A stretch of DNA of 64,000 nt from Clostridia bacterium (GTDB lineage Bacteria > Bacillota > Clostridia > TANB77 > UBA1234). Positions within the stretch are counted from its first letter, which is position 1; the number at the start of each line of letters is the position of its first letter. This document shows positions 24,638 through 51,918 of the stretch, piece after piece. Where the stretch lies: assembly GCA_017518295.1 (NCBI GenBank), contig JAFWVJ010000022.1, forward strand, positions 19,614 to 83,613, read 5' to 3'. The notes under the pieces are model-generated. The model was not told the DNA's origin. It saw nothing but the letters and a program-made list of their open reading frames with translations, and did no database searches. Both the position numbers and the translations under genes were made by a program.

Positions 24638-24667
24638 AAATGATTTTTGGACCTGCCTTAAAAAACA
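24638..24667. repeat. Palindromic ~30-bp element, copy 1 (right arm degenerate)
   Basis: aatgatttttggacctgccttaaaaaacag; about 22 bp upstream of the start of 24689..25423. Confidence 0.8.
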
Positions 24668-33102: not shown

Positions 33103-33133
33103 AAATGTTTTTTGGGTGTGCCCAAAAAACAAG
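33102..33133. repeat. Palindromic element copy 8 (degenerate core gggtgtgccc), directly after the NERD stop codon and before a terminator
   Basis: aaatgttttttgggtgtgcccaaaaaacaag. Confidence 0.7.
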
Positions 33134-36922: not shown

Positions 36923-36930
36923 ATGCCATT

Positions 36931-36963
36931 GACATATTATTACCTACTATGTTATAATATGTA
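36931..36963 (+). promoter_or_regulatory. Sigma-A-type promoter for the HigB-like / HTH-ImmA pair
   Basis: TTGACA-18 bp-TATAAT. Confidence 0.7.
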
Positions 36964-36988
36964 AAAGCAATTCAAAAGAGGTAATAAA

Positions 36989-37315
36989 TTGGAAATACGC
37001 AAGTCAAAAAACTATTTGAAGGATTATCAAAAGAAACTGGTAAGACTTCATAAAAACAAAGAAATACAGACTATAGAAAGTATAGAAACATTAATCATAA
37101 ATTCTATCAACTTAAAAGAACTATTACAAAATCCACTCCATATAGTTTATGGGATAGAACAAAAGCATGGTGATTTAAAAGAAATTTTTACAGCAAAAAT
37201 TAATAATAAATTAAGACTTCGAATGCGACCGGTAGGAGAATATCCATATAATTTGGTTGAAATCGAAGCAATAGAATTTTGCGAAATAGATGATAAGCAC
37301 TATGGAGAAGGTTAG
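36989..37315 (+). CDS. Putative HigB-like (RelE/ParE superfamily) toxin
   Basis: TTG start behind a perfect TTGACA-18-TATAAT promoter; C-terminal ...LVEIEAIEFCEIDDKHY resembles the HigB DYH end; next gene is an HTH-XRE protein. Confidence 0.4.
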   Translation: MEIRKSKNYLKDYQKKLVRLHKNKEIQTIESIETLIINSINLKELLQNPLHIVYGIEQKHGDLKEIFTAKINNKLRLRMRPVGEYPYNLVEIEAIEFCEIDDKHYGEG

Positions 37316-37326
37316 GAGGAAGTAGT

Positions 37327-38358
37327 ATGGTTGGTTTTGGAAGTTTCTTAAAAGATTATTTAGAATTTCATAATATTTCACAATCAGAGTTTGCTATTCG
37401 ACTTGGAATTACTCAAAAGCACATGAATGAAATTGCAAATGGCAAAGTTCCTATTACAGCTGAATTAGCAGCAAACATTAGTCGTTTAACTGGTATAGAT
37501 GCAAGCTTTATTATCAATGTTGAAAATGACAAAAAGCTAAAAGAAACTATAATAAATGACTTAGGCACAGAAAAAGCAGTAGATAAAATGCTTAAAGAAA
37601 ATTTTTCTTTAAAAGAACTTAAAGAAAGAGAATGGGTGAAGTTTTTAGATATTACTTCGCCACTTCAAAACTATTTAGATATTCTAAAGTTTTTAAAAAT
37701 AAAGGACTTGTCTATAATTCCATCTTTAGAAAAACAAGTATTATTTAAGAAGGATGGAGAAGACTTTAACAAGCTTGCATTATGGATTGCGCATTGTGAT
37801 GAAATTTGTGCAGATCAAAAAGTTAATGAATATAACAAATTAAATCTTGCATTTTTAGTAGAGGACTTAAATAAACTTGCTTATAAAGGAATTCATGATA
37901 TAAATGAAATACAAGATATTCTTAACAAATATGGATTTTATTTTGTATGTGATAAAGCACTAAAAGGAACAAAAGTAAGAGGTTGCTTTAAAGTAAGAGG
38001 ATTAACACCTACAATTTATAATACAGCAAATTATGCTGGACTAGATTCTCTATATTTTGAGATATTACATGAAATAGGACATTGCAAATCTGATTATAAC
38101 GAAGCAAAGAATAAAACTATAATAGAATCAACAGAAGAAAAGGAAAAAAGAGCAGATAGCTTTGCAATTAACAATATGATAGGTGAAGAAAAATGGATGT
38201 TAATTTTAGACTCTGATTTAACAGAAAAATCACTTTTAGATATTTCTAAAAAGTATAAAATACCTATGTGCTATATTGTTGGAAGATTAGCTAAATTTAA
38301 GAAAATTCCTTATAATAGTACTTTATATAATAAATATGACGTAATAAAAAGCGCATAG
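37327..38358 (+). CDS. HTH-XRE DNA-binding domain fused to ImmA/IrrE-family zinc metallopeptidase
   Basis: N-terminal HTH (QSEFAIRLGITQKHMNEIANG); HEIGH zinc-binding motif (ILHEIGHC). Confidence 0.85.
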   Translation: MVGFGSFLKDYLEFHNISQSEFAIRLGITQKHMNEIANGKVPITAELAANISRLTGIDASFIINVENDKKLKETIINDLGTEKAVDKMLKENFSLKELKEREWVKFLDITSPLQNYLDILKFLKIKDLSIIPSLEKQVLFKKDGEDFNKLALWIAHCDEICADQKVNEYNKLNLAFLVEDLNKLAYKGIHDINEIQDILNKYGFYFVCDKALKGTKVRGCFKVRGLTPTIYNTANYAGLDSLYFEILHEIGHCKSDYNEAKNKTIIESTEEKEKRADSFAINNMIGEEKWMLILDSDLTEKSLLDISKKYKIPMCYIVGRLAKFKKIPYNSTLYNKYDVIKSA

Positions 38359-38453
38359 AAGTAATTTGCAAGGCAATTTAATAGTAGTATTAGTTGAAGC
38401 AAATCACTTGAAGTATGGGTGGTTTGCTTTTTTGAGTAAGGAGGTATGATTAA

Positions 38454-38834
38454 ATGTATAAAATTGTTCGTATAATAGGAATAATCATTAGAAGTCAATT
38501 TTTAGCAAATGCTTTTGAATTTTATTTTGGCAAAGATGGGATGGGCTTGCTGTATGCATATATTATAAATGCTACAATTGGAGAAGCATTACTTTATATG
38601 ACTTCATTTAGTTTGGTAGGAACCTTTTATGAGAAGAATTCATTTCCTACAGTAGGAAGCTTATCATATACGGCATTTTATATATTAAATAATTGTATAT
38701 TAATTGCTTCATGTCTATTATGCAGATATTTCAACTTGCATATAGCAATTTCTATTGTTATATATACAATAATAGAAATGATATTGTATTACTTGTTTTT
38801 TAAAATTAATAACAAATCATATTTTACAAATTAA
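38454..38834 (+). CDS. Small integral membrane protein
   Basis: RBS AAGGAGG; 3-4 TM. Confidence 0.55.
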   Translation: MYKIVRIIGIIIRSQFLANAFEFYFGKDGMGLLYAYIINATIGEALLYMTSFSLVGTFYEKNSFPTVGSLSYTAFYILNNCILIASCLLCRYFNLHIAISIVIYTIIEMILYYLFFKINNKSYFTN

Positions 38835-38846
38835 TGAGGTGATTAC

Positions 38847-39614
38847 ATGGGTAGACCAATTGGAAAATGTCACATTTGTGGAAAAGAATGTGAATTAACA
38901 TATGAACATATTCCACCAAAGAAAGCATATAACCATAAACCTACAAAAATGTATATAGGAAAAGAGTACTTTAAAGATCTTGAAAAAAGAGATATCAAAG
39001 ATACAAGTAAGTTGAGATATACAGATTTTCAAAAAGGAGTAGGTGATTATACTTTATGTGAAAGGTGCAACAGTACTACTGGTAAATGGTATGCAGGAGA
39101 ATATATTAAGATATCTAATGCCATTTATGATTATTTAGGTCATCATCTAGAAGAATTAAAAGATGCTAAATCGGTTGAATTAGATTTTAAAGATGTATAT
39201 CCCTTAAAATTCTTTAAACAAATAATTGCTATGTTTTTGTCTATAATACCAAATGAATATTTGGAAAACCATAAAGAATTAAGGAAATATGTATTAGATA
39301 GAGACAGTGTTGAATTTTCTAACAAAAAATATAGAATAAGTTTGGGACTTTTGAAACAAGATTTTGAAGGATGGTCTGGAATTAATCATTTATTAATGTG
39401 TAATGGAAAAATAAAACTAATATCATTTCTTGTTGTGGCTCCATTTTATTTTGTGTTGGAATTTAATCCGGAAGAAATTGTTTTTGATAATTTGCTTGAT
39501 ATAACTAGTATCGGACACCAATATAACTATAATGATAGGATAGCTTTAAATATAAAGTCAAATCTATTTTTAGAAAGTGAAGTTTTTCCGATAAACTTGT
39601 TTTATCATAAATGA
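38847..39614 (+). CDS. HNH-endonuclease-domain protein
   Basis: CHICGKEC...EHIPPKKAYN...CERCN matches the HNH CxxC...H-N...CxxC architecture. Confidence 0.5.
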   Translation: MGRPIGKCHICGKECELTYEHIPPKKAYNHKPTKMYIGKEYFKDLEKRDIKDTSKLRYTDFQKGVGDYTLCERCNSTTGKWYAGEYIKISNAIYDYLGHHLEELKDAKSVELDFKDVYPLKFFKQIIAMFLSIIPNEYLENHKELRKYVLDRDSVEFSNKKYRISLGLLKQDFEGWSGINHLLMCNGKIKLISFLVVAPFYFVLEFNPEEIVFDNLLDITSIGHQYNYNDRIALNIKSNLFLESEVFPINLFYHK

Positions 39615-39764
39615 AATATGCATTTTTAAGCTCTAAATAATGATCGAAAATGTAAAAACCGTAGTTGACAATAATTGAAAATGCATTTTCGAGTATTATG
39701 ATATCATATGAAAACGTAAGCCAGTAATACCAATACTTTTATCAAAAATATTTTTTCAAAAATG

Positions 39765-39793
39765 TTGACATAATTGTTGCTACACAATATAAT
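39765..39793 (+). promoter_or_regulatory. Sigma-A-type promoter for the HEPN (pseudo)gene
   Basis: TTGACA-17 bp-TATAAT (perfect consensus). Confidence 0.7.
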
Positions 39794-39828
39794 AACTATA
39801 CAATAATTCAAAGGAGAAAATGAACATT

Positions 39829-40369
39829 ATGTATGAACTTAATTCTGATAATATAATGAATAAATTTGGTGATGACATTCGAAAAATGATAGGTGACTTT
39901 TCTATATTGTGGAATCTGTATGAAAAAAGTCTTTTTAAGGATGCAGAGGAAAAATATAGAATAATAAATAATAAGAGAAAAAAATGATAAGATTTTTCAA
40001 GAGAACATACATGATGGTATTATAAAAATAAAAAGTGAAAGCAGTTTTTTTCAAAATAACGAAAATGAAATAGACAAATGCTTTTTAAATTTAAATTCTT
40101 TTCTTCGAAACTATTATCATAATGATTCATATAAATATAGTGCCCAAGGTATAATTGATTTTTTTAGGGTAAATGATAATGAAAATGCAAAAAAAGAAGT
40201 TGAAAACTTGTTTGATAATCCTGTTGAGCAATGGGGGTCAAAAGAGAAGTTTCATTTATTATTAATTGTTATTTATAGGGTTAGAAACAATATGTTTCAT
40301 GGAGAAAAAGATGTTATAAAGTTAAAAGATCAAAAGAGCTTTTTTGCATATGTAATAGCATGCTTCTAA
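39829..40369 (+). pseudogene. HEPN-domain (Abi/RiboL-PSP-like) gene interrupted by a frameshift in an A7 homopolymer (39978-39984)
   Basis: Perfect promoter TTGACA-17-TATAAT; N-terminal 52-aa ORF stops at 39985; the +1 frame continues to 40369 and encodes the HEPN Rx4-6H motif (YRVRNNMFHG). Deleting one A restores a single ORF. Confidence 0.55.
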
Positions 40370-40477
40370 TGATTATTGATAATATAGATATAAAGTTGCA
40401 AAACTTATTGTAGAACAAAAATCCTTTCTTTTATCAAATTAGTGTGAATTTCTTAATAGAAAGGAGAAATTAAAATG

Positions 40478-40501
40478 AATAAAAGAATAAAAGAATAAAA
40501 G
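40478..40501 (+). repeat. Tandem 8-bp repeat (AATAAAAG)x3 between a strong RBS/ATG and the GGCT-like ORF
   Basis: Three perfect units; the unit is not a multiple of 3, so copy number sets the reading frame. Confidence 0.85.
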
Positions 40502-40545
40502 AATTATTCAGAGGTGCCAATGTAATCATAGATTACCCTGGCCAA

Positions 40546-41193
40546 TTGTACACAAATGATGAAGCAGATATTTGCGTAGAAACAAAATACGCACAAGAAT
40601 TAAGCATCATTTATTTCCAATTAAGAGATTACTTTGTTAAAGAAATCGATTATTTGAACAAATATGATTTCTATGGCAGCTTGGCTGAAAACTACAATAG
40701 GCTAATAAAAAAGAATGGAGATATTAAAGAAAATCTTCAAACATTTTTATTAACTATAAAAACAGCCTTATACTTTGCTTATGGATTAAACATGGATAAG
40801 GAACAAATGAAAGAAAGATGCCCTGGAGCTATTCCTGTTGGTATAGCAACATTGGACAATTACAAATTTGTTTTAGACTCTGCAGGAACAGCTAGTGTTG
40901 TTCCTGAAAAAGGTTCAAAAGTTGAAGGATTACTTTGGCTAATTAATACAGATGGGGAAAAGGCACTAGATAGATATGAAGGCACAAATTTGACAACTCC
41001 ATGCTATATTAAGAAACACTTAGAAATCGAATTCAACAATGAAAAATCTAAGGCTTTAGTCTATGTTTCGAATAGAGACATTATAGACAAGCCTATTAGA
41101 AAAGACTACATCAATAGAGTAGTCCAAGCAGCAAAAGATGTTAGACTTTCATCAAAGTATATCAAGGATAATCTTGATAAATATACAAATTAA
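40546..41193 (+). CDS. Gamma-glutamyl cyclotransferase (GGCT/AIG2)-like protein with N-terminal extension
   Basis: YFAYGLNMD...E GGCT motif; the in-window frame has only a TTG start with no RBS. An upstream ATG with a strong RBS is out of frame because of a 3-unit 8-bp repeat (see findings). Confidence 0.7.
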   Translation: MYTNDEADICVETKYAQELSIIYFQLRDYFVKEIDYLNKYDFYGSLAENYNRLIKKNGDIKENLQTFLLTIKTALYFAYGLNMDKEQMKERCPGAIPVGIATLDNYKFVLDSAGTASVVPEKGSKVEGLLWLINTDGEKALDRYEGTNLTTPCYIKKHLEIEFNNEKSKALVYVSNRDIIDKPIRKDYINRVVQAAKDVRLSSKYIKDNLDKYTN

Positions 41194-41196
41194 CTA

Positions 41197-41233
41197 AAAA
41201 TAGACCATTGTATAAGCAATGGTCTATTTTTAT
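41197..41233. terminator. Bidirectional intrinsic terminator
   Basis: atagaccattgtataagcaatggtctat flanked by A- and T-runs. Confidence 0.75.
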
Positions 41234-41520
41234 AAATCTATTATACTATAAACTTCAACATTATTCGCAGAAAATGCTTCAAAGTCAACTACTTTCATAT
41301 CAAAACCGCCTATATTTGGTGAAACTTCAAAAATGTTTTCTTTTGTCATAATACTACCAACATGATTTACGAAAACAGATGGTTCAATAGAGGCAATGAA
41401 TGCGATTGAATTTTTTTCGCTGCCATCATAGCCTCTTAAATCATTTATGAAAATTCCTTGATTTAAATATTTTTGTTTTTCTTCATTTATATATCTTTTA
41501 CTATCAATATAATAATTCAT
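41230..41520 (-). CDS. Hypothetical small protein
   Basis: RBS GTGAGG; bidirectional terminator shared with GGCT-like gene. Confidence 0.5.
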   Translation of the reverse strand: MNYYIDSKRYINEEKQKYLNQGIFINDLRGYDGSEKNSIAFIASIEPSVFVNHVGSIMTKENIFEVSPNIGGFDMKVVDFEAFSANNVEVYSIIDL

Positions 41521-41656
41521 AATAAAAACCTCACTTTTTGAAGATTATATAATAAAGTTTTTAGATCGTAAATATCTGTCTTATGGAAACTTAATTTTTC
41601 TTAGTATGTTCGCTAGATCTTTACAATTTGTTGTGCTAATCTAGTTGTGAAATAAA

Positions 41657-42577
41657 ATGAAGGAAGAAATAATTATGGAAACTATAGAAAAAGCAAGACC
41701 TTTTGTTAAGTGGGCTGGAGGTAAAGCAGGACTTATTCCTCAAATAACAAAGTACTATCCAGATGCTTTAAAATCAGGTCAAATAGAAAGATATATTGAA
41801 CCATTTCTTGGTGGGGGAGCAATTCTTTTAGATGTACTTCAAAAGTATGATGTAAAGGAAGCCTATGCTTATGATACAAATCAAGATTTGGTTAATGCAT
41901 ATAATGTGATAAAAACGGATGTAGATAATCTTATTAAGAAATTGCAAAAATATGAAAAAGAATATTTGCCATTGGATGAAGAAGAAAGAAAAGAGTACTA
42001 CTACGATTTAAGAGATGAATATAATTCTGCAGAAGTTAAGTCTGGAAAGCTATCATATAAAAGAGCAGCACAGTTTATATTCTTAAACAAAACATGCTTT
42101 AATGGTTTGTACAGAGTAAATGCAAGTGGTGATTTCAATGTGCCAATGGGTAATTATAAAAATCCGACAATTTGCGATACTGAAAACTTACTAAAGCTAT
42201 CTAGATTACTACAAAATGTTGAAATTATCTGTGGAGATTACCATGATACATTAGAGTTAGTTAATCCAAAAACTTTTGTGTATTTTGATCCACCTTATAG
42301 ACCATTACCGGATACTAATGGTTTTACTTCATACACAAAGGATGACTTCAATGACGAAGACCAAAAGAGGTTGGGAGAATTCTATAAGCAACTAAGTCAA
42401 AAAGATGCAAAATTGATGCTAAGTAATTCTAATCCAAAGAACACAAATGAAAGTGATACATTCTTTGATGACTTATACAAAGGCTTTTATATAAATGAAG
42501 TACAGGCGAATAGAGCAATTAATTCAGATGGCGCAAAGAGAGGCAAAATTTCTGAGCTACTGATAATTAATTATTAG
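41657..42577 (+). CDS. Dam-like N6-adenine DNA methyltransferase (DpnM-like, GATC)
   Basis: FVKWAGGK motif and DPPY catalytic motif (VYFDPPYRPL). Confidence 0.9.
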   Translation: MKEEIIMETIEKARPFVKWAGGKAGLIPQITKYYPDALKSGQIERYIEPFLGGGAILLDVLQKYDVKEAYAYDTNQDLVNAYNVIKTDVDNLIKKLQKYEKEYLPLDEEERKEYYYDLRDEYNSAEVKSGKLSYKRAAQFIFLNKTCFNGLYRVNASGDFNVPMGNYKNPTICDTENLLKLSRLLQNVEIICGDYHDTLELVNPKTFVYFDPPYRPLPDTNGFTSYTKDDFNDEDQKRLGEFYKQLSQKDAKLMLSNSNPKNTNESDTFFDDLYKGFYINEVQANRAINSDGAKRGKISELLIINY

Positions 42578-42585
42578 AGGTTACA

Positions 42586-43380
42586 ATGAAAGAAAAAACT
42601 TATTATTTTAATAAAAAAGATTTTAAGTTAATAAATAAAGATACATTAAAAGCTACTAAAAATATGAAGGATAAAACATTTGATATGATTTTTGCAGATC
42701 CTCCATATTTTTTGTCTAATAGTGGCATAACTTGTAGTGGCGGTAAGATGGTAAGTGTAAATAAAGGCGAGTGGGATAAAGCAAAGTCGCTTGAAGACAA
42801 GCATGAGTTCAACAGAGAGTGGATTAGAGAGTGTTATAGAATTTTAAAAGATGATGGAACGATTTGGATAAGTGGAACACTTCACAATATTTATTCTATT
42901 GGTATGGCACTTGAAGAAGAAGGTTTTAAAATCATTAATAATATTACATGGCAAAAAACAAACCCACCACCAAACTTAGCTTGCAAGACTTTTACACATT
43001 CAACAGAAACAGTATTGTGGGCTAGGAAAGATATTAAAGGAGCAAAATATAAATTTAACTATAAATTGATGAAAGAGCTAAATGGCAACAAGCAAATGAA
43101 AGATGTATGGACAACTTCTTTGACAAAACCATCAGAGAAGAAGTTTGGCAAGCATCCTACACAAAAACCATTAGAGTTGCTTGAAAAAATTGTACTAGCT
43201 TCAACTAATGAAAATGATTTGATATTAGATCCTTTTAGTGGAAGCGGTACTACTGGAATTGCAGCTGCAATGCATAATAGAAAATATATTGGAATTGATT
43301 TGGATAAAAGCTATTTAGATATTTCTATTAAGAGATATGAAAGCTTAAATGGAGGACTAGATGGAGAAAAGAAATTTTGA
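42586..43380 (+). CDS. Second N6-adenine DNA methyltransferase (DpnA-like, beta class)
   Basis: DPPY (IFADPPYF) near N-terminus; AdoMet motif DPFSGSGTTG at C-terminus. Confidence 0.85.
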   Translation: MKEKTYYFNKKDFKLINKDTLKATKNMKDKTFDMIFADPPYFLSNSGITCSGGKMVSVNKGEWDKAKSLEDKHEFNREWIRECYRILKDDGTIWISGTLHNIYSIGMALEEEGFKIINNITWQKTNPPPNLACKTFTHSTETVLWARKDIKGAKYKFNYKLMKELNGNKQMKDVWTTSLTKPSEKKFGKHPTQKPLELLEKIVLASTNENDLILDPFSGSGTTGIAAAMHNRKYIGIDLDKSYLDISIKRYESLNGGLDGEKKF

Positions 43381-44209
43381 TGAATGGATTGGTGGATTTA
43401 GAGAGAGCATTGCAAATTATAAATACTATGTTGATTTTGATGTTGTTTATGAAAATGTCGAAAAATTCAAGGTTGAATTGAATATTTTGAACAGCTTGAT
43501 AGGTTCGAAGAATATAGAAAAGGAGTTCTTGGATATTATTAAGCAATATCCTAATACTTTGAAATGTGTACCATTTTTATTGGCTGTTAGAAGATTGGAA
43601 ATTTTAGCTCAAGATGAAGACATGCAATACATTTATAAATTTGCTCAAATGAATTACGCTCCAGAACAATATGCTGTATTGATGAAAGAGACAGGATTAT
43701 TTGAATTGCTTGAAAACCATTTGGTAAGTAGTTTGATAGACTATGCGCTTGGCGTTGAAGTAGGATTAAACTCAAATGGAAGAAAAAATCGTGGTGGGCA
43801 TTTGATGGAAGATTTAGTCGAAAGCCACATAAAAAAAGCTGGATTTAAAGAGTATTATAAAGAGATGTACTTAAATGAGATTGAAGAAAAATGGGGACTC
43901 GATTTATCGAGTATTTCAGGAGATGGAACTTCAACAAAGAGATTTGATTTTGTTATAAAAACCGACAATATGGTTTATGGAATTGAGACTAATTTTTATG
44001 CTTCTGGTGGTTCTAAACTTAATGAAACAGCTAGAAGTTATAAGATGATAGCTGAAGAAGCCAAGAATATTAAAGAATTCAAATTTGTTTGGATTACTGA
44101 TGGAAGTGGCTGGGTGTCAGCTAGAAGAAACTTGAAAGAGACATTTGATGTGTTAGAAAATATATACTGCATAAAAGACTTAGAAGAGGGAGTACTTAAG
44201 AAATTATAA
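43361..44209 (+). CDS. DpnII-family type II restriction endonuclease (GATC)
   Basis: Size, position after two GATC-type methylases and family-like sequence; overlaps the methylase gene by 20 bp. Confidence 0.8.
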   Translation: MEKRNFDEWIGGFRESIANYKYYVDFDVVYENVEKFKVELNILNSLIGSKNIEKEFLDIIKQYPNTLKCVPFLLAVRRLEILAQDEDMQYIYKFAQMNYAPEQYAVLMKETGLFELLENHLVSSLIDYALGVEVGLNSNGRKNRGGHLMEDLVESHIKKAGFKEYYKEMYLNEIEEKWGLDLSSISGDGTSTKRFDFVIKTDNMVYGIETNFYASGGSKLNETARSYKMIAEEAKNIKEFKFVWITDGSGWVSARRNLKETFDVLENIYCIKDLEEGVLKKL

Positions 44210-44297
44210 TATAAAATACGAGAGCAAAGTATTTAGGTGAGTAGTTGGCGCATAGATGCTTTGCTTTTTTATATATAATAAAAAAGGAGGAGAGAGT

Positions 44298-45149
44298 TTG
44301 AAATTAAGTAAAGAAAAAGTGACAGATATTTTTCTTGAAATTAACGCAGTATTTGTCAATATGATTTTACAAGTAAAACCATCTATCACCGAGTTTATGG
44401 AGAAAGAACTGTTCGATGACTTTGTAGAATCATATAATAGAGCATTTAGAATGATCAGTAACAACAAGATGTTAGATGGAATGGTTATACTAAGAAACTC
44501 GTTTGAATTGATGCTAATGTTGTTTGGTGTTAGAATTGATTCAATAGTTAGAGAAGAGTATTGCAGGGAAGATAGCTATAAAAGATATTTGAAGAGAAAA
44601 GATAAAGATGATAAAGCTATAGATTATTTATCTCCAGCATATTTAAGAGATTTAATTCATAAAAAATATCCTAATATTGATGCAAATTATTCTCAACTAT
44701 ATGGAGCTTTATCAAAATATGCTCATCCGACATTTTATAGGAATATAATGAGATTTTATGAAAGAGAAAAAATAGATGTTATTGTAAGTAATTTGAACCT
44801 AGCCAATATGATTCCGACGTTGTTTTTGGAAGTTCTTTATGAACAGGGCTTAGTTTTAAAAGATAGATTTGATGACGTTTTGATGCTAAGATTTATAATA
44901 GATCGATTATCTACTTTGTATCTTGTTTATATGGACAAAAGTGATATATTAAAGGCAAATAAATACGTTTTTTCAGAGATAAATCAAGATTTTAATCGCA
45001 AACAGATTGAAAAGATGAAAAACGATTTTCTTAATACGGAAAAAATAGTAAAAGATTATAATCAAGAATTAAAAGAATCATTAAACAAATTACTATCTAA
45101 AGTAGAGTACTATAATTTAGCGAAAAAACTATCTGGCTTAGGGTTCTAG
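44298..45149 (+). CDS. Hypothetical protein adjacent to the restriction-modification system
   Basis: TTG 44298 with AAGGAGG RBS preferred over ORF-track ATG 44256. Confidence 0.5.
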   Translation: MKLSKEKVTDIFLEINAVFVNMILQVKPSITEFMEKELFDDFVESYNRAFRMISNNKMLDGMVILRNSFELMLMLFGVRIDSIVREEYCREDSYKRYLKRKDKDDKAIDYLSPAYLRDLIHKKYPNIDANYSQLYGALSKYAHPTFYRNIMRFYEREKIDVIVSNLNLANMIPTLFLEVLYEQGLVLKDRFDDVLMLRFIIDRLSTLYLVYMDKSDILKANKYVFSEINQDFNRKQIEKMKNDFLNTEKIVKDYNQELKESLNKLLSKVEYYNLAKKLSGLGF

Positions 45150-45262
45150 GAGGCTCGCAACCGCGCCGATGTTTTTCACTATGATATCCCTACCGCCATT
45201 CAAGATTTACCAAATGTTGCTGAAGATAACGAAGAATACCATACATAATAGGAGTGATTCTT

Positions 45263-45427
45263 ATGCCATTCTATATGATTGAAATTAATGAAAACCTTTC
45301 TAGAATTATAGATATTGAAGCGGAGGATGAAGAATCTACTTTGAAGATTGCTAGAGAGAAATATAAAAATGGAGAAATAGTTTTAGATAGTGATGACTAT
45401 GTTGATACAACGTTCACTGTTCAATAG
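45263..45427 (+). CDS. DpnD/PcfM-like small protein (54 aa), below the ORF-track size cutoff
   Basis: RBS AGGAG; ...IEAEDEESTLKIAREKY...DSDDYVDTTFTVQ fits the DpnD/PcfM family pattern; sits next to the DpnII-type system as in pneumococcal dpn cassettes. Confidence 0.4.
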   Translation: MPFYMIEINENLSRIIDIEAEDEESTLKIAREKYKNGEIVLDSDDYVDTTFTVQ

Positions 45428-45449
45428 AATAAGAGAGGATGTGATAATA

Positions 45450-45944
45450 ATGGCTGAATTAAGAGATTTGTATGATATAAATAGTAATAAGACAGATAAA
45501 ACATATATGAAAGGTGATCCGATTCCCGAAGGTTATTATCCAATGGTGGTAATGGTTGTTATTAGAAATTCTAAAGGTGAATTTTTAATGCAAAAAAGAG
45601 TGGAATCTAAAGGTGGAGATTGGGGAGTAACTGGTGGTCACCCTAAATCTGGAGAAACGCCTATGGAAGGTATTATTACCGAAGTTAAAGAAGAATTAGG
45701 ATTAGATTTTTCTAATGAAAGATTTGTTGAATATGATTCTGGTTGTGACGGAAAAGATTGTTACAAGATGTATTTTGTTACTAAAGATATAGATATTAGC
45801 GAAATCACAATTCAAGAGGAAGAGTTAAGTGAAGTAAGATGGTTTACCATGGATGAATTAAAAAGTATGGTAGAGTCTGGCGAACTAAACGAAGACCAAA
45901 TCGCATGCTTTAATAAAGTGTGCAAGTTTCTTGGTCGCAAATGA
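45450..45944 (+). CDS. Nudix hydrolase (paralog of the C-terminal domain of 50923..51918)
   Basis: Nudix box GGHPKSGETPMEGIITEVKEELG; about 85 percent nucleotide identity to 51437-51918. Confidence 0.85.
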   Translation: MAELRDLYDINSNKTDKTYMKGDPIPEGYYPMVVMVVIRNSKGEFLMQKRVESKGGDWGVTGGHPKSGETPMEGIITEVKEELGLDFSNERFVEYDSGCDGKDCYKMYFVTKDIDISEITIQEEELSEVRWFTMDELKSMVESGELNEDQIACFNKVCKFLGRK

Positions 45945-45970
45945 TTCTTGGGACAGGTCTCAAAATCATT
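45940..45970. repeat. Palindromic element copy 10 (opposite orientation), overlapping the TGA stop of Nudix gene 45450..45944 and preceding the truncated kinase fragment
   Basis: aatgattcttgggacaggtctcaaaatcatt. Confidence 0.8.
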
Positions 45971-46003
45971 CTTATGATATAATTACTGTTGGAGATGATA
46001 CAA

Positions 46004-46147
46004 ATGTCAAAATTATATATTATTACTGGTCCTGCTGGAGTGGGCAAGAGTACTATTTCAAAAAAGATTGCAGAGAGCCTTTCTAAATCGGTTTTAATTG
46101 AAGGTGATGATATTTATAGTCAAGTTATAGAGATTAAAAGGAGATGA
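46004..46147 (+). pseudogene. Truncated duplicate of P-loop kinase gene 48515..49024 (first about 45 codons only)
   Basis: About 95 percent nucleotide identity over about 105 bp to 48530-48640, then diverges and stops at the amylase RBS. Confidence 0.6.
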
Positions 46148-48024: not shown

Positions 48025-48489
48025 ATGATTAAAGTTTTATTTGTTTGCCTTGGCAATATTTGTCGTTCACCAATGGCAGAGATGATGTTTAAAGATTTTG
48101 TTAAAAAGCATGGTATGCAAAATAAATTTCATATTGAGTCATGTGCAACTAGTTACGAAGAAGAAGGTAATGGTTTGCATTATGGGGCGATAGATATTTT
48201 AAATCGTCATAACATTCATATAGATCCTCACAAAGCTCATCGTTTGCAAAAATCAGATTACGATAAGTTTGATTATTTAATCGGTATGGAAGAGAGCAAT
48301 ATATATAACATTATGCGAATAATTGATGAAGATCCTAAGCACAAAGTTTATCGTTTGTTAGATTTTTCAAATAATCCAAGAGATATTACAGATCCTTGGT
48401 ATACAGGAAACTTTGTTAAGACTTATGATGATTTGCAAGAAGGTTTAAATGCTTTTTTAACAAGTATAATATCTAAAATTAATGATTAA
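48025..48489 (+). CDS. Low-molecular-weight protein-tyrosine phosphatase
   Basis: CLGNICRSP P-loop motif; DP motif (DITDPWY). Confidence 0.85.
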   Translation: MIKVLFVCLGNICRSPMAEMMFKDFVKKHGMQNKFHIESCATSYEEEGNGLHYGAIDILNRHNIHIDPHKAHRLQKSDYDKFDYLIGMEESNIYNIMRIIDEDPKHKVYRLLDFSNNPRDITDPWYTGNFVKTYDDLQEGLNAFLTSIISKIND

Positions 48490-48514
48490 TAAAATTTTAA
48501 AGGAGGCAAAAATC

Positions 48515-49024
48515 ATGCCAACCCTATACATTATTACTGGCCCTGCTGGAGTGGGTAAGAGTACAATTTCAAAAAAGATTGCAGAGAGCCTTTCTAAATC
48601 GGTTTTAATAGAAGGTGACGATATATATAACCATGTTGTAGGTAGCTATGTTTCACCTTGGAAAGAAGGCAATCACTTAGATATTTTTTGGAAGGTTTCT
48701 GTTGATGTTATTAAAGATTATTTAGATGCAGGTTATGATGTAGTTTTTAATTATATTATAAATCCTTCAAATCTAAATTTTCTAAAGCAAAGTTTAAAAG
48801 ACTACAATAAAAGATTTATAGTTTTACTAGTTGATGAAGAGACTTTGCTTAAAAGAGATGCTATGCGTCCGGAAGATTGTCAGATGAAAGAACGCTGCAT
48901 TGTGCTTTTAAATCATTTTAAAGAGCATAATTACGATGAAAAGTTTATTATAGATACTGGTAAGACTAGTATAGAAGATTCAGCTAAACAAGCTATAGAA
49001 GGTGATAGATTTTTAATGATATAA
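48515..49024 (+). CDS. P-loop NTPase / small-molecule kinase-like protein
   Basis: Walker A GPAGVGKST; ATG 48515 with AAAGGAGG RBS preferred over ORF-track 48482. Confidence 0.65.
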   Translation: MPTLYIITGPAGVGKSTISKKIAESLSKSVLIEGDDIYNHVVGSYVSPWKEGNHLDIFWKVSVDVIKDYLDAGYDVVFNYIINPSNLNFLKQSLKDYNKRFIVLLVDEETLLKRDAMRPEDCQMKERCIVLLNHFKEHNYDEKFIIDTGKTSIEDSAKQAIEGDRFLMI

Positions 49025-50922: not shown

Positions 50923-51918
50923 TTGAAACACAAAATTTTTAATGAAGATAATTTAAAAGATGAAGATATGGATGGCTCTGTTGTTAGAGTTAAAGCTTTT
51001 ATCATTAATAATAATGACGAAGTTATTATGGCTTCGTCTAATGGTGGTGTTCAATTAATTGGCGGACATGTCGAAGATGGAGAGTCAGAAGTTGAAACTC
51101 TAAAGCGTGAGATATTAGAAGAAGCTGGTATCGAAGTTTCAAATGAAGAAATTTCGAATGTCTTTTACGAAGTTAGGCACTATACAAAAAATTATTATAA
51201 TTCTGGTAAAAACGTTTTATCTATAATTCATTATTATTTAGTTCATACAGATAAATCTCCAAATCTAGAAAAAGTGCATCGCACAAGTCAAGAAAAAAGA
51301 TATGCTTTTGAATTAAAATATATTCCTTTAGATTCTTTTGAAGAAGTTTTAAGCGAATATCTTAATAACGACAAAGAAATAAACAGAATAATTGCTGCTG
51401 AAACTATAGAAGCATTTAAAAATATTCCTGAGCTAAGAGATTTGTATGATATAAACAGTAATAAAACAGATAAAACATATAGAAAAGGTGATAAGGTTCC
51501 TGAAGGTTATTATCCTATGGTAGTTATGGTTGTAATTAGAAATTCTAAGGGCGAATTTTTAATGCAAAAAAGAGTAGAGTCTAAAGGCGGAGATTGGGGA
51601 GTAACAGGTGGTCATCCAAAATCTGGAGAAACTCCTATTGAAGGAATAATTACCGAAGTAAAAGAAGAATTAGGATTAGATTTTTCTAATGAGAATTTTA
51701 TCGAATATGATTCTGGTTGTGATGGAAAAGATTGCTACAAGATGTACTTTGTTACAAAAGATGTAGATATAAACGACATCAAAATTCAAGAAGAAGAGCT
51801 TACTGAAGTTAGATGGTTTACTATGGATGAACTAAAAAGCATGGTAGATTCTGGAGAATTAAATGAAGATCAAATAGCATGCTTTAATAAAGTGTGTGAT
51901 TTTTTAAATAAAAAATAA
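50923..51918 (+). CDS. Tandem double Nudix-domain hydrolase
   Basis: TTG start with GGAGG RBS; two Nudix boxes (GGHVEDGESEVETLKREILEEAG and GGHPKSGETPIEGIITEVKEELG). Confidence 0.8.
   Translation: MKHKIFNEDNLKDEDMDGSVVRVKAFIINNNDEVIMASSNGGVQLIGGHVEDGESEVETLKREILEEAGIEVSNEEISNVFYEVRHYTKNYYNSGKNVLSIIHYYLVHTDKSPNLEKVHRTSQEKRYAFELKYIPLDSFEEVLSEYLNNDKEINRIIAAETIEAFKNIPELRDLYDINSNKTDKTYRKGDKVPEGYYPMVVMVVIRNSKGEFLMQKRVESKGGDWGVTGGHPKSGETPIEGIITEVKEELGLDFSNENFIEYDSGCDGKDCYKMYFVTKDVDINDIKIQEEELTEVRWFTMDELKSMVDSGELNEDQIACFNKVCDFLNKK

What the first reader, a model, noticed from the sequence alone, without database searches (positions are those of the whole stretch)
36931..46147. Defence island: HigB-like/HTH-ImmA, HNH protein, HEPN, phase-variable GGCT-like gene, complete DpnII-type RM system with DpnD-like gene, Nudix
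A contiguous ~9-kb block collects defence genes. The palindromic element closes the block at 45940.

Its members are a toxin-like small gene with an HTH-XRE + ImmA metallopeptidase partner, a membrane protein, an HNH nuclease-domain protein and the interrupted HEPN gene. They continue with the repeat-switched GGCT-like gene, a small reverse-strand gene, and Dam-like and DpnA-like methylases with a DpnII endonuclease. A 297-aa unknown gene, a 54-aa DpnD/PcfM-like gene (below the ORF-track cutoff) and a Nudix hydrolase complete it.

The two-methylase plus DpnII endonuclease arrangement with a DpnD-like gene mirrors the pneumococcal dpn cassette organisation.

The unknown genes embedded here (38847, 41230 on the reverse strand, 44298) are good candidates for uncharacterised defence functions.
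Basis: partly seen in the sequence, partly recalled or inferred. Interest (0 to 1): 0.55.

Follow-up and report, generated by a model that had tools for sequence, protein, structure and literature searches.

The report
Defence island around a DpnII-type restriction system
A 9-kb stretch of an uncultured gut Clostridia genome really is a cluster of anti-phage genes built around an ordinary GATC restriction-modification system, and two of its companion genes are broken by small frameshifts rather than visibly 'switched'.

Summary
The gene content is confirmed at the stated coordinates. The core (41657-44209) is a complete three-gene DpnII/LlaDCHI-type restriction-modification system: a Dam-like methylase closest to DpnM, an N6_N4 methylase and a DpnII endonuclease. 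GATC is the most depleted 4-bp palindrome in the window (O/E 0.52).

The 108-aa gene plus the HTH-metallopeptidase gene resemble components A and B of the tested PD-lambda-2 system. The 255-aa protein is a divergent HNH family.

The "HEPN" gene has an invariant RNNMFH motif but no profile hit, and a frameshift in an A7 tract breaks it. The GGCT gene is cut from its conserved start by a third copy of an octamer. Six independent assemblies carry the same state and two relatives have no repeat, so phase variation is not supported.

One related contig carries intact HEPN-like, GGACT, methylase, methylase and DpnII genes as a single block. In all four contexts seen, the HEPN-like gene has a GGACT gene within two genes downstream.

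The 283-aa unknown is a rare DUF5677-like protein. In three lineages it sits downstream of three different restriction genes, twice near DpnD/PcfM.

In pneumococcus DpnD belongs to the DpnI cassette, not DpnII. Overall this is a real but largely ordinary island with two modest leads.

The parts
36929..36958 (+). Promoter-like site P1 (TTGACA, 18-nt spacer, TATAAT, with TG) 30 bp upstream of the first gene of the block
   Evidence: One of only two 12/12 consensus matches in 36.5-46.3 kb. This is a consensus match only.
36989..37315 (+). 108-aa toxin-like protein of the RelE/HigB/YoeB superfamily (PD-lambda-2 A-like)
   Evidence: The window protein has no Pfam hit. The family has 48 representatives. 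R76, H104 and Y105 are invariant or nearly invariant. 7 of 19 members hit HigB-like_toxin (best 2.9e-5), 4 hit YoeB and 3 hit YafQ. The PDB profile's top hits are YoeB and HigB at E 0.02-0.8.
37327..38358 (+). 343-aa protein with a HigA/XRE helix-turn-helix fused to an HExxH zinc-metallopeptidase (PD-lambda-2 B-like)
   Evidence: HTH_3 1.4e-4. TIGR02607 antidote_HigA 4.5e-9. PADLOC PD-Lambda-2_B 4.6e-19 over residues 18-323. PHROG metallo-protease 1.7e-10. The HEIGH motif is visible in the sequence.
38454..38834 (+). 126-aa small hydrophobic (membrane) protein of unknown function
   Evidence: Hydropathy. No family hit. Weak similarity (31% over 68 aa) to a 99-aa protein in the related island L105.
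38847..39614 (+). 255-aa protein with a divergent N-terminal HNH (His-Me finger) domain and a C-terminal alpha/beta domain of unknown function
   Evidence: Rare family of 29 clusters. Invariant CxxC...EH...N...CxxCN. 26 of 29 members hit HNH_5, best 9.8e-5. The top PDB profile hit is the IscB HNH segment. The AF2 model has pLDDT 90. Foldseek against PDB found nothing significant.
39765..39793 (+). Promoter-like site P2 upstream of the HEPN-like/GGCT pair
   Evidence: The second of the two 12/12 consensus matches.
39820..40369 (+). HEPN-like gene interrupted by a frameshift in the A7 tract at 39978-39984
   Evidence: Removing one A restores a 182-aa ORF. Intact homologues are 194-203 aa and cover 86-99% of it. 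GDFSILWNLYE and RVRNNMFHG (Rx4H) are invariant. No Pfam, PADLOC or PDB profile hit.
40475..41193 (+). GGACT/AIG2-fold protein with a conserved N-terminal domain. Its ATG at 40475 is cut off from the ORF by three copies of the octamer AATAAAAG (40478-40501).
   Evidence: GGACT 6.4e-13 and AIG2_2 1.7e-9. phrog_2520 gamma-glutamyl cyclotransferase 1.6e-21. Only two octamer copies give a 236-aa ORF; three or more give a stop after 7 codons. Intact orthologues in L105 (70%) and L106 (91%) start MNNLFRGAG / MNEMFRGAG and have no repeat.
41195..41232 (.). 16-bp-stem hairpin between the convergent GGCT and 96-aa genes, likely a bidirectional terminator
   Evidence: Terminator scan and the sequence itself.
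41230..41520 (-). 96-aa reverse-strand gene of unknown function
   Evidence: Only sub-threshold hits: LPD28 4e-4 and PDC-M62A 9e-4. The orthologous island L105 has no such gene.
41657..42577 (+). M1: Dam-family (alpha-class, D12) N6-adenine methylase of DpnM type. The gene caller starts it at 41675 (300 aa).
   Evidence: PF02086 4e-63. TIGR00571 3.7e-88. Best PDB match is DpnM 2DPM at 1.2e-55.
42586..43380 (+). M2: N6_N4 methylase in the position of DpnA
   Evidence: PF01555 1e-64. PADLOC MTase_II 1.2e-102. It overlaps the R gene by 20 nt.
43361..44209 (+). R: DpnII-family type II restriction endonuclease (expected site GATC)
   Evidence: PF04556 1.1e-105 over the full length. PADLOC REase_II 2.1e-95. 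59% identical to the endonuclease of S. aureus plasmid NZ_CP094796 and 35% to that of pSRQ700.
44298..45149 (+). 283-aa all-alpha DUF5677-like protein that recurs downstream of restriction genes
   Evidence: 28 clusters among 5.8 billion sequences. 20 of 22 members hit PF18928, best 5.3e-7. Homologues follow HsdR directly in L007-L011 and follow HsdR-YgjP in L012. The AF2 model has pLDDT 87. No structural match in PDB or BFVD.
45263..45427 (+). 54-aa DpnD/PcfM-family protein
   Evidence: PF14207 3.2e-14, 53.1 bits against a cut-off of 25. A DpnD-PcfM gene also lies near the DUF5677-like homologue in L012.
45450..45944 (+). 164-aa single-domain Nudix hydrolase, a paralogue of the C-terminal half of the gene at 50923-51918
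   Evidence: NUDIX 2e-17. PADLOC candidate PDC-S07 5.6e-11. 88% nt identity over 470 nt to 51428-51896.
45941..45973 (.). Copy of a roughly 30-nt palindromic intergenic element
   Evidence: 10 matches to the 18-mer core against 0.02 expected. An eleventh, more divergent copy is at 33105-33129. The copies form hairpins and lie mostly just after stop codons.
45989..46147 (+). Truncated 5' fragment of a P-loop kinase gene, a partial duplicate of 48482-49024
   Evidence: 46004-46130 is 88% (93% over 105 nt) identical to 48515-48641. P-loop hits.

Best explanation
The block is a composite defence island in an uncultured Clostridia bacterium from metagenome assemblies (only source name: 'Clostridia bacterium' MAG). 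It is made of separately transcribed modules.

1. An active-looking DpnII/LlaDCHI-type type II restriction-modification operon, M1-M2-R, with the M2 and R genes overlapping by 20 nt. By homology, the endonuclease cuts unmethylated GATC in incoming DNA. The DpnM-like methylase protects the host's double-stranded DNA. The second methylase sits where DpnA sits in pneumococcus, where DpnA methylates single-stranded DNA. This mechanism is inferred from family membership and was not measured here.

2. An operon starting at a consensus promoter (36929). It encodes a RelE/HigB-like protein and a HigA-HTH/zinc-peptidase fusion, the A and B parts of a PD-lambda-2-like toxin-antitoxin-derived abortive-infection system. 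A small membrane protein and a divergent HNH nuclease follow in the same operon.

3. A two-gene unit, HEPN-like (predicted RNase from its Rx4H motif) plus an N-terminal-domain GGACT-fold enzyme, running from its own consensus promoter to a strong hairpin. In another organism the same pair sits intact directly upstream of an orthologous DpnII operon. In the window lineage both genes are knocked out by simple-sequence frameshifts: an A7 tract in one and a third copy of an octamer in the other.

4. Downstream of R lie a rare DUF5677-like protein and a DpnD/PcfM protein. The DUF5677-like family recurs downstream of three different restriction genes, so the pair is best read as an RM-linked accessory whose biochemical role is unknown.

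The Nudix gene and the kinase fragment at the right edge look like recombination debris or paralogues rather than defence genes.
For: Restriction-modification system:
- Full-length, high-scoring family matches, with DpnM as the best solved relative.
- The same M-M-R order and overlaps occur on S. aureus plasmid NZ_CP094796 and L. lactis pSRQ700.
- GATC is observed 100 times against 190.7 expected (O/E 0.52), the lowest of all 16 palindromic tetramers.

PD-lambda-2-like pair: PADLOC B model 4.6e-19, family-level HigB/YoeB hits, and the published architecture and phenotype (PMC9519451).

HNH: invariant motif and 26 of 29 members hitting HNH_5. One homologue lies beside Mrr_cat, AAA_21+RloB and RelB-PIN genes.

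HEPN-like and GGACT:
- Intact homologues exist and the motif is invariant.
- L105 carries HEPN-like-GGACT-M1(82%)-M2(87%)-R(90%) plus an integrase.
- L019 and L020 carry the HEPN-like gene with a GGACT gene two genes downstream.
- The frameshift and the octamer effects were computed directly.
- Six assemblies have an identical state.
- L105 and L106 lack the repeat.

DUF5677-like. The neighbouring HsdR proteins are only 26% identical to each other while the DUF5677-like proteins are 49% identical.

Operon layout: two 12/12 promoter matches and the hairpin.
Against: - No functional data exist. Methylation, cleavage and phage resistance are all untested.
- The island could not be shown to be variable. 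Every contig carrying these genes is over 99.9% identical to the window. The closest other genome found (amylase 82% identical) shares no synteny.
- PD-lambda-2 component C, which is required for defence in E. coli, has no detectable counterpart. The PADLOC A model does not hit the 108-aa protein.
- HEPN is motif-only.
- The HEPN-like/GGACT link rests on four contexts, of which L019 and L020 are related to each other. The GGACT proteins of L019 and L020 are not close orthologues of the window's. None of 38 loci with GGCT relatives contains the HEPN-like gene, although most of those contigs are short. L106 has a different gene within 300 bp upstream.
- The DUF5677-like association rests on three lineages.
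- A DUF5677 protein tested in E. faecalis was not among the ORFs reported as protective (PMC12632615).
Confidence: 0.75

Rival explanations
1. The HEPN-like and GGCT genes are contingency (phase-variable) loci. The A7 tract and the octamer array change length at high frequency, so subpopulations switch the two-gene module on and off.
For: Both disruptions sit exactly in simple-sequence tracts. Each is reversible by one slippage event: A7 to A6, and three octamers to two. Everything else in the island is intact. Two independent simple-repeat frameshifts in the two genes of one module is a notable coincidence.
Against: - The tracts are short: 7 A and 3 units.
- Only one copy number is ON. Any number of three or more puts the repeat's own TAA in frame.
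- Six assemblies from different samples show no length difference.
- The 91%- and 70%-identical orthologues have no repeat at all, so the array is a recent lineage-specific duplication and not a conserved switch.
- Assemblies give only consensus sequence, so minority alleles were not examined.
Confidence: 0.12
2. Only the restriction-modification operon is a defence system. The other genes are unrelated cargo or decaying remnants of a mobile element, and their co-location is incidental.
For: - Several members have no significant family hit: the 126-aa and 96-aa proteins, and the HEPN-like gene.
- Two genes are already pseudogenised.
- The Nudix gene and the kinase fragment are paralogue debris.
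- No integrase lies in the block.
- A tested DUF5677 protein was not among those reported as protective.
Against: - PADLOC hits the HTH-peptidase at 4.6e-19 against a validated system.
- Homologues of the 255-aa, HEPN-like and DUF5677-like proteins lie beside restriction, GmrSD, Mrr, RloB and toxin-antitoxin genes in unrelated contigs.
- The HEPN-like-GGACT-M-M-R order is conserved in L105.
Confidence: 0.15
3. The interrupted HEPN-like gene is still expressed at a low level. Transcriptional slippage, or a -2 ribosomal slip, on the A7 run would give a small dose of a toxic RNase. On this reading the frameshift is a dosage device and not a knock-out.
For: The required shift (+1, equivalent to -2) can be made by a Lys-tRNA re-pairing two bases back on the A run. 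This follows from the sequence and is inference.
Against: - Intact homologues have no A-run frameshift.
- A7 is short for efficient slippage.
- No conserved stimulatory structure was looked for or seen.
- The partner gene is also disrupted.
Confidence: 0.05

Closest known systems
Streptococcus pneumoniae DpnII cassette (dpnM-dpnA-dpnB) and Lactococcus lactis LlaDCHI on pSRQ700
   Same: Three co-directional genes in the same order: a Dam-like methylase, an N6_N4 methylase and a DpnII-family endonuclease. M1 is closest to DpnM among solved structures (1.2e-55). On pSRQ700 and on staphylococcal plasmids the genes are packed in the same way.
   Different: - The endonuclease is only 35% identical to the pSRQ700 enzyme and 59% to the staphylococcal plasmid enzymes.
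- The operon is followed by a DUF5677-like gene and a DpnD/PcfM gene. In pneumococcus DpnD belongs to the alternative DpnI cassette, not to DpnII (PMC4471560).
- Cassette-like replacement at a fixed chromosomal site could not be shown.
- GATC specificity and single-strand methylation by M2 are untested.
PD-lambda-2 (Vassallo et al. 2022, PMC9519451)
   Same: An upstream HigB-like small protein is followed by a HigA-type HTH fused to a C-terminal metallopeptidase. The PADLOC B model hits at 4.6e-19 and covers most of the protein.
   Different: - No homologue of the third component (related to a P4 antitoxin), which is required for defence in E. coli.
- The next genes are a small membrane protein and an HNH protein.
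- The A-like protein is too divergent for the PADLOC A model.
- Which partner is toxic is unknown here.
Accessory or back-up genes linked to restriction systems (PrrC inside EcoprrI, RloC; YgjP-like genes in type I operons)
   Same: A gene of unrelated function is kept immediately next to restriction subunits of different types. The DUF5677-like family follows two divergent HsdR genes and one DpnII gene. The comparison with PrrC and RloC comes from general knowledge, not from a test here.
   Different: There is no sequence or fold similarity to PrrC or RloC: no ATPase domain and no anticodon-nuclease motif. No structural match was found at all. Function is unknown.
HEPN toxin systems (HEPN-MNT, AbiD/F-type, Csm6-type Rx4-6H RNases)
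   Same: An invariant R-N-x3-H-G motif lies near the C-terminus of a small protein with no match to any known family. The protein is encoded in a two-gene unit in defence-gene neighbourhoods.
   Different: There is no match to any HEPN profile or solved HEPN structure. The partner is a GGACT/AIG2-fold enzyme and not a nucleotidyltransferase.

Membership tests
DpnII/LlaDCHI-type type II restriction-modification system | Endonuclease of the DpnII family (PF04556) | tested here: met
   1.1e-105, residues 5-281 against profile positions 1-278 of 278. PADLOC REase_II 2.1e-95.
DpnII/LlaDCHI-type type II restriction-modification system | Dam-family (D12) methylase related to DpnM | tested here: met
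   PF02086 4e-63. TIGR00571 295.7 bits against a cut-off of 114.85. Best PDB match is 2DPM (DpnM) at 1.2e-55.
DpnII/LlaDCHI-type type II restriction-modification system | Second methylase of the N6_N4 family in the DpnA position, with gene order M1-M2-R | tested here: met
   PF01555 1e-64. Order and overlaps as on pSRQ700 and S. aureus plasmid NZ_CP094796. No direct comparison with the DpnA sequence was made.
DpnII/LlaDCHI-type type II restriction-modification system | Recognition of GATC, with G6mATC methylation protecting the host | not testable with these tools
   Indirect evidence only: GATC O/E is 0.52, the lowest of 16 palindromic tetramers in the window.
   The literature places dpnD with dpnC in the DpnI cassette. 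The DpnII cassette is dpnM, dpnA and dpnB (PMC4471560).
DpnD/PcfM family (PF14207) | Profile match above the gathering threshold | tested here: met
   53.1 bits against a cut-off of 25, E 3.2e-14, profile positions 1-45 of 46.
PD-lambda-2 | Component B: HigA-like HTH fused to a peptidase | tested here: met
   PADLOC PDLC03982 4.6e-19, residues 18-323. antidote_HigA 4.5e-9. HEIGH motif.
PD-lambda-2 | Component A: HigB-like protein upstream | tested here: inconclusive
   No PADLOC hit. At family level, 7 of 19 members hit HigB-like_toxin (best 2.9e-5) and the PDB profile finds YoeB and HigB at E 0.02-0.8.
PD-lambda-2 | Component C: protein related to a P4 antitoxin, required for defence | tested here: not met
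   No PD-Lambda-2_C hit for any neighbouring protein. The requirement is taken from PMC9519451.
HNH / His-Me finger nucleases | CxxC ... (D/E)H ... N ... CxxC(N/H) signature conserved across the family | tested here: met
   C8, C11, E20, H21, N29, C71, C74 and N75 are invariant in 29 sequences of 23-40% identity.
HNH / His-Me finger nucleases | Significant profile or structural match to a known HNH domain | tested here: inconclusive
   The window protein scores HNH_5 E 0.11. 26 of 29 members hit HNH_5, best 9.8e-5, below the gathering score. IscB HNH is the top PDB profile hit at E 0.85. Foldseek against PDB gave nothing significant.
HEPN | Rx4-6H motif conserved near the C-terminus | tested here: met
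   RVRNNMFHG is invariant in 11 sequences.
HEPN | Match to a HEPN profile or a four-helix HEPN fold | tested here: inconclusive
   No hit from Pfam, PADLOC, NCBIfam or the PDB profile search.
Phase-variable (contingency) locus | A repeat tract whose length sets the reading frame | tested here: met
   Two octamers give a 236-aa ORF. Three, as in the window, give a stop after 7 codons.
Phase-variable (contingency) locus | Tract-length differences between closely related strains or assemblies | tested here: not met
   L001-L006 align to the window without any gap. Orthologues in L105 and L106 have no repeat. Read-level heterogeneity was not testable.
GGACT/AIG2-like gamma-glutamyl(amine) cyclotransferase fold | Profile match above threshold | tested here: met
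   PF06094 49.8 bits against a cut-off of 22.8, and PF13772 38.4 against 27. phrog_2520 1.6e-21.
DUF5677 (PF18928) | Profile match | tested here: inconclusive
   The window protein has no hit. 20 of 22 family members hit, best 5.3e-7. One homologue carries a precomputed PF18928 tag.

The most novel reading that the evidence does not exclude
Two uncharacterised modules ride with restriction systems.

(a) A rare all-alpha DUF5677-like protein, often with a DpnD/PcfM microprotein, is a general accessory of restriction endonucleases of unrelated types (type I HsdR and type II DpnII). It could be a regulator of restriction, or a sensor or back-up for it.

(b) A HEPN-like RNase paired with a GGACT-fold enzyme is a new toxin/effector pair that can travel as one cassette with the DpnII operon. 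In this lineage it has been silenced by two reversible simple-sequence frameshifts.
Probability: 0.3. Interest if true: 0.55.

Novelty: new member of a known kind. Interest (0 to 1): 0.35.

Why it matters
The main result is reassurance. The island call is right and its core is a textbook GATC restriction-modification system, so it needs no special follow-up.

Two by-products could matter to people who catalogue defence systems.

1. A very rare protein family (28 clusters among 5.8 billion sequences) sits downstream of three different restriction genes, twice near DpnD/PcfM. DpnD has had no assigned function since the pneumococcal DpnI cassette was described.

2. A HEPN-like/GGACT gene pair is found intact directly upstream of an orthologous DpnII operon elsewhere.

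Both are cheap to test by cloning. Either would add an RM-linked accessory function if it proved positive.

Tried and rejected
- Other collections. The 283-aa protein has no relatives in annotated plasmids, phages or IMG/VR. The HEPN-like family has none in IMG/VR.
- Island boundaries by comparison. All contigs carrying the flanking genes are essentially the same strain. A genome-contig scan with the adjacent amylase found its best relative at 82% identity, with none of the window's other genes within 10 kb. Boundaries and variability therefore remain unproven.
- Octamer length variants. A gapped DNA pattern search of metagenome contigs found nothing.
- The 96-aa reverse-strand gene. I considered that it is the same as a 96-aa reverse-strand gene in L007. 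They show no similarity.
- The GGACT proteins of L019 and L020. I considered that they are orthologues of the window's. BLASTP finds no similarity at E below 1e-3, so that link is at domain level only.
- The palindromic element. I considered that it marks the island end and rejected this, because about 11 copies are scattered over 24.6-46 kb.
- RNA genes. There are no tRNA or Rfam hits anywhere in the window.

Full report
**What is there**

The window is low-GC DNA, about 26-32% GC across the block. The only source name for any of its proteins is 'MAG: hypothetical protein IKI57_07215 [Clostridia bacterium]'. Contigs from several independent metagenome assemblies are 99.98-100% identical to the window over 9.6-21 kb and align without a single indel. 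The sequence features discussed below are therefore properties of a lineage and not assembly artefacts.

**The restriction-modification core (41657-44209)**

- M1 is a Dam-family D12 methylase (PF02086 4e-63; TIGR00571 3.7e-88). Its best solved relative is pneumococcal DpnM, 2DPM, at 1.2e-55.
- M2 is an N6_N4 methylase (1e-64; PADLOC MTase_II 1.2e-102).
- R matches the DpnII endonuclease family over its whole length at 1.1e-105.
- M2 and R overlap by 20 nt.
- The same M-M-R arrangement occurs on S. aureus plasmid NZ_CP094796 (R 59% identical) and on L. lactis pSRQ700, the LlaDCHI plasmid (35%).
- GATC occurs 100 times in the window against 190.7 expected from a trinucleotide Markov model. This O/E of 0.52 is the lowest of all 16 palindromic tetramers. 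It is what long exposure to GATC restriction would produce, but it is indirect evidence.
- In one assembly (L004) the R gene carries Y22* plus two nearby missense changes while both methylases are intact. That is an R-minus M-plus variant.

**The first operon (36929-39614)**

One of only two perfect sigma-70 consensus matches in 36.5-46.3 kb lies 30 bp upstream of the 108-aa gene.

The 108-aa protein has no direct family hit. An exhaustive HMMER search found 48 representatives. R76 is invariant and a C-terminal H-Y is conserved. Seven of 19 members hit HigB-like_toxin (best 2.9e-5) and others hit YoeB or YafQ. The family profile's top PDB hits are YoeB and HigB at E 0.02-0.8. RelE/HigB-superfamily membership is thus supported at family level.

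The next gene fuses a HigA-type HTH (TIGR02607 4.5e-9) to an HExxH peptidase. It hits PADLOC PD-Lambda-2_B at 4.6e-19 over nearly its whole length. PD-lambda-2 is an experimentally validated abortive-infection system. In it, B alone is toxic, A rescues, and a third protein related to a P4 antitoxin is required for defence (PMC9519451). No counterpart of that third component is detectable here. Instead a 126-aa hydrophobic protein and a 255-aa protein follow.

The 255-aa protein belongs to a rare family of 29 clusters. CxxC-x8-EH-x7-N ... CxxCN is invariant. 26 of 29 members hit HNH_5 below threshold. The IscB HNH segment is the best PDB profile match. A confident AF2 model (pLDDT 90) found no whole-chain structural neighbour. 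Homologues occur as single genes, once beside Mrr_cat, AAA_21+RloB and RelB-PIN genes and once beside Fic and integrase genes.

**The HEPN-like/GGCT unit (39765-41232)**

The second perfect promoter match precedes the HEPN-like gene. A 16-bp-stem hairpin follows the GGCT gene.

Removing one A from the A7 tract at 39978-39984 fuses the two ORF pieces into a 182-aa protein. That protein aligns over 86-99% of its length with intact homologues of 194-203 aa. GDFSILWNLYE and RVRNNMFHG are invariant. The second motif fits the HEPN Rx4-6H signature. No HEPN profile or solved structure matches, so 'HEPN' remains a motif-level call.

For the GGCT gene, the ATG at 40475 is followed by AATAAAAG x3. With two units the ORF is 236 aa. 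With three or more the repeat's own TAA falls in frame.

Orthologues in L105 (70% identity) and L106 (91%) start MNNLFRGAGVIIDYPGQLYTNDEADICVET and MNEMFRGAGV... and have no repeat. This shows two things. The true start lies upstream of the TTG at 40546 that opens the mechanically listed ORF. The octamer array is also a recent, lineage-specific duplication.

Together with the lack of any length difference among six assemblies, this argues for a fixed knock-out and not for a phase switch. Minority alleles in reads could not be examined.

**Linkage of these two genes to each other and to the RM operon**

- L105 carries NUDIX - SRA - GmrSD_N - HEPN-like (intact, 203 aa) - GGACT (intact, 233 aa) - D12 methylase (82%) - N6_N4 methylase (87%) - DpnII (90%) - HATPase_c - small membrane protein - integrase. 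This is the window's order, minus the 96-aa reverse-strand gene.
- In L019 and L020/L021 the HEPN-like gene is followed by two other genes and then by a double-GGACT protein.
- Every HEPN-like context examined therefore has a GGACT gene within two genes downstream.
- The reverse does not hold. None of 38 loci with GGCT relatives, most of them short contigs, contains the HEPN-like gene, and L106 has a different gene directly upstream.
- The GGACT proteins of L019 and L020 are not close orthologues of the window's.

**Genes downstream of R**

The 283-aa protein (ATG at 44298) belongs to a family of only 28 clusters, none of them named. Twenty of 22 members hit DUF5677, best 5.3e-7. Its model is all-alpha (pLDDT 87) and has no significant structural neighbour in PDB or BFVD.

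In L007-L011 the homologue starts at the base after the HsdR stop. In L012 it follows HsdR-YgjP, and a DpnD-PcfM gene lies 740 bp further on. The two HsdR proteins are 26% identical to each other while the adjacent DUF5677-like proteins are 49% identical. The association is therefore with different restriction partners and is not one inherited block.

The 54-aa gene is a clear DpnD/PcfM member. In S. pneumoniae dpnD accompanies dpnC in the DpnI cassette, whereas the DpnII cassette is dpnM-dpnA-dpnB (PMC4471560).

A DUF5677 ORF tested in E. faecalis was not among those reported as protective (PMC12632615).

**Right edge**

The Nudix gene is 88% identical at DNA level to the C-terminal half of the two-domain Nudix gene at 50923-51918. 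The following 127 nt duplicate the 5' end of the kinase gene at 48482. I read these as paralogue or recombination debris. The PADLOC candidate hit (PDC-S07, 5.6e-11) is generic Nudix similarity.

**Limits**

No strain or relative lacking the island was found, so its variability and exact ends are unproven. All mechanisms are inferred from homology.

**Verdict**

This is a genuine, mostly ordinary defence island. Its core is a known kind of system. One module resembles a validated TA-derived system but is incomplete by that system's definition. One two-gene module is inactivated. Two gene-neighbourhood associations, DUF5677-like/DpnD with restriction genes and HEPN-like with GGACT, are new leads of moderate interest.

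Noticed in passing
window 24646-45973 (copies at 24646, 25998, 26217, 27910, 28462, 29626, 29662, 32593, 33105, 33686, 45946): A roughly 30-nt imperfect palindrome, consensus ATGTTTTTTGGACCTGTCCCAAAAAACAT. The 18-mer core has 10 matches against 0.02 expected, and an eleventh, more divergent copy lies at 33105. The copies can form an 8-11-bp hairpin and mostly sit just after stop codons. One copy lies inside the NERD-HRDC ORF. It looks like a REP-like intergenic element of this genome and has no Rfam match.
   Followed up: partly
window 45454-45922 vs 51428-51896; 46004-46130 vs 48515-48641: Two partial duplications (88% and 88-93% nt identity) of genes that lie 6 kb and 2.5 kb downstream. At the island's right edge they appear in the opposite order. 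The amylase and LMW-phosphatase genes sit between the kinase fragment and the intact kinase gene. The origin is unexplained; it could be a recombination joint or a donor flank.
   Followed up: partly
L004 (ENA ERZ27256867), equivalent to window 43392, 43426, 43462: One assembly of the same lineage has three substitutions within 70 bp at the start of the DpnII gene: G11D, Y22* and E34D. These are three of only four differences in 16.6 kb. The variant lacks restriction but keeps both methylases.
   Followed up: yes
whole window: GATC is the most under-represented palindromic tetramer: 100 observed against 190.7 expected, O/E 0.52. The next lowest is CTAG at 0.76.
   Followed up: yes
window 41564 and 41616: Two GATC sites lie in the 136-bp region between the 96-aa reverse-strand gene and M1. 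DNA similarity to L105 begins at 41595. This could allow methylation-sensitive control of the operon, which was not tested.
   Followed up: no
The island may begin further upstream than 36931.
   Followed up: no
L007 560-16867 (ENA ERZ27273536, 1.48-Mb contig): A large RM-rich island: HsdM-HsdS-210aa-HsdR-DUF5677-like-DUF7695 (zinc-ribbon-like, 88 aa)-52aa-495aa-D12 methylase-AAA_15 ATPase. The variable right flanks among L007-L011 suggest a hotspot.
   Followed up: no
L019 5058-8969; L020 851-8957: A conserved cluster of DUF1810, an unknown gene, the HEPN-like gene, a ~300-aa gene, a 121-179-aa gene and a double-GGACT gene (54-66% identity between the two loci). Helicase, DUF4238 and GmrSD_N genes are nearby. 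This is possibly a larger uncharacterised system of which the window keeps only two genes.
   Followed up: partly
window 39615-39800: The intergenic region before the HEPN-like gene contains repeated AAATGCATTTT motifs and a 14-15-nt tandem repeat at 39732-39763 next to the consensus promoter. These may be operator sites.
   Followed up: no
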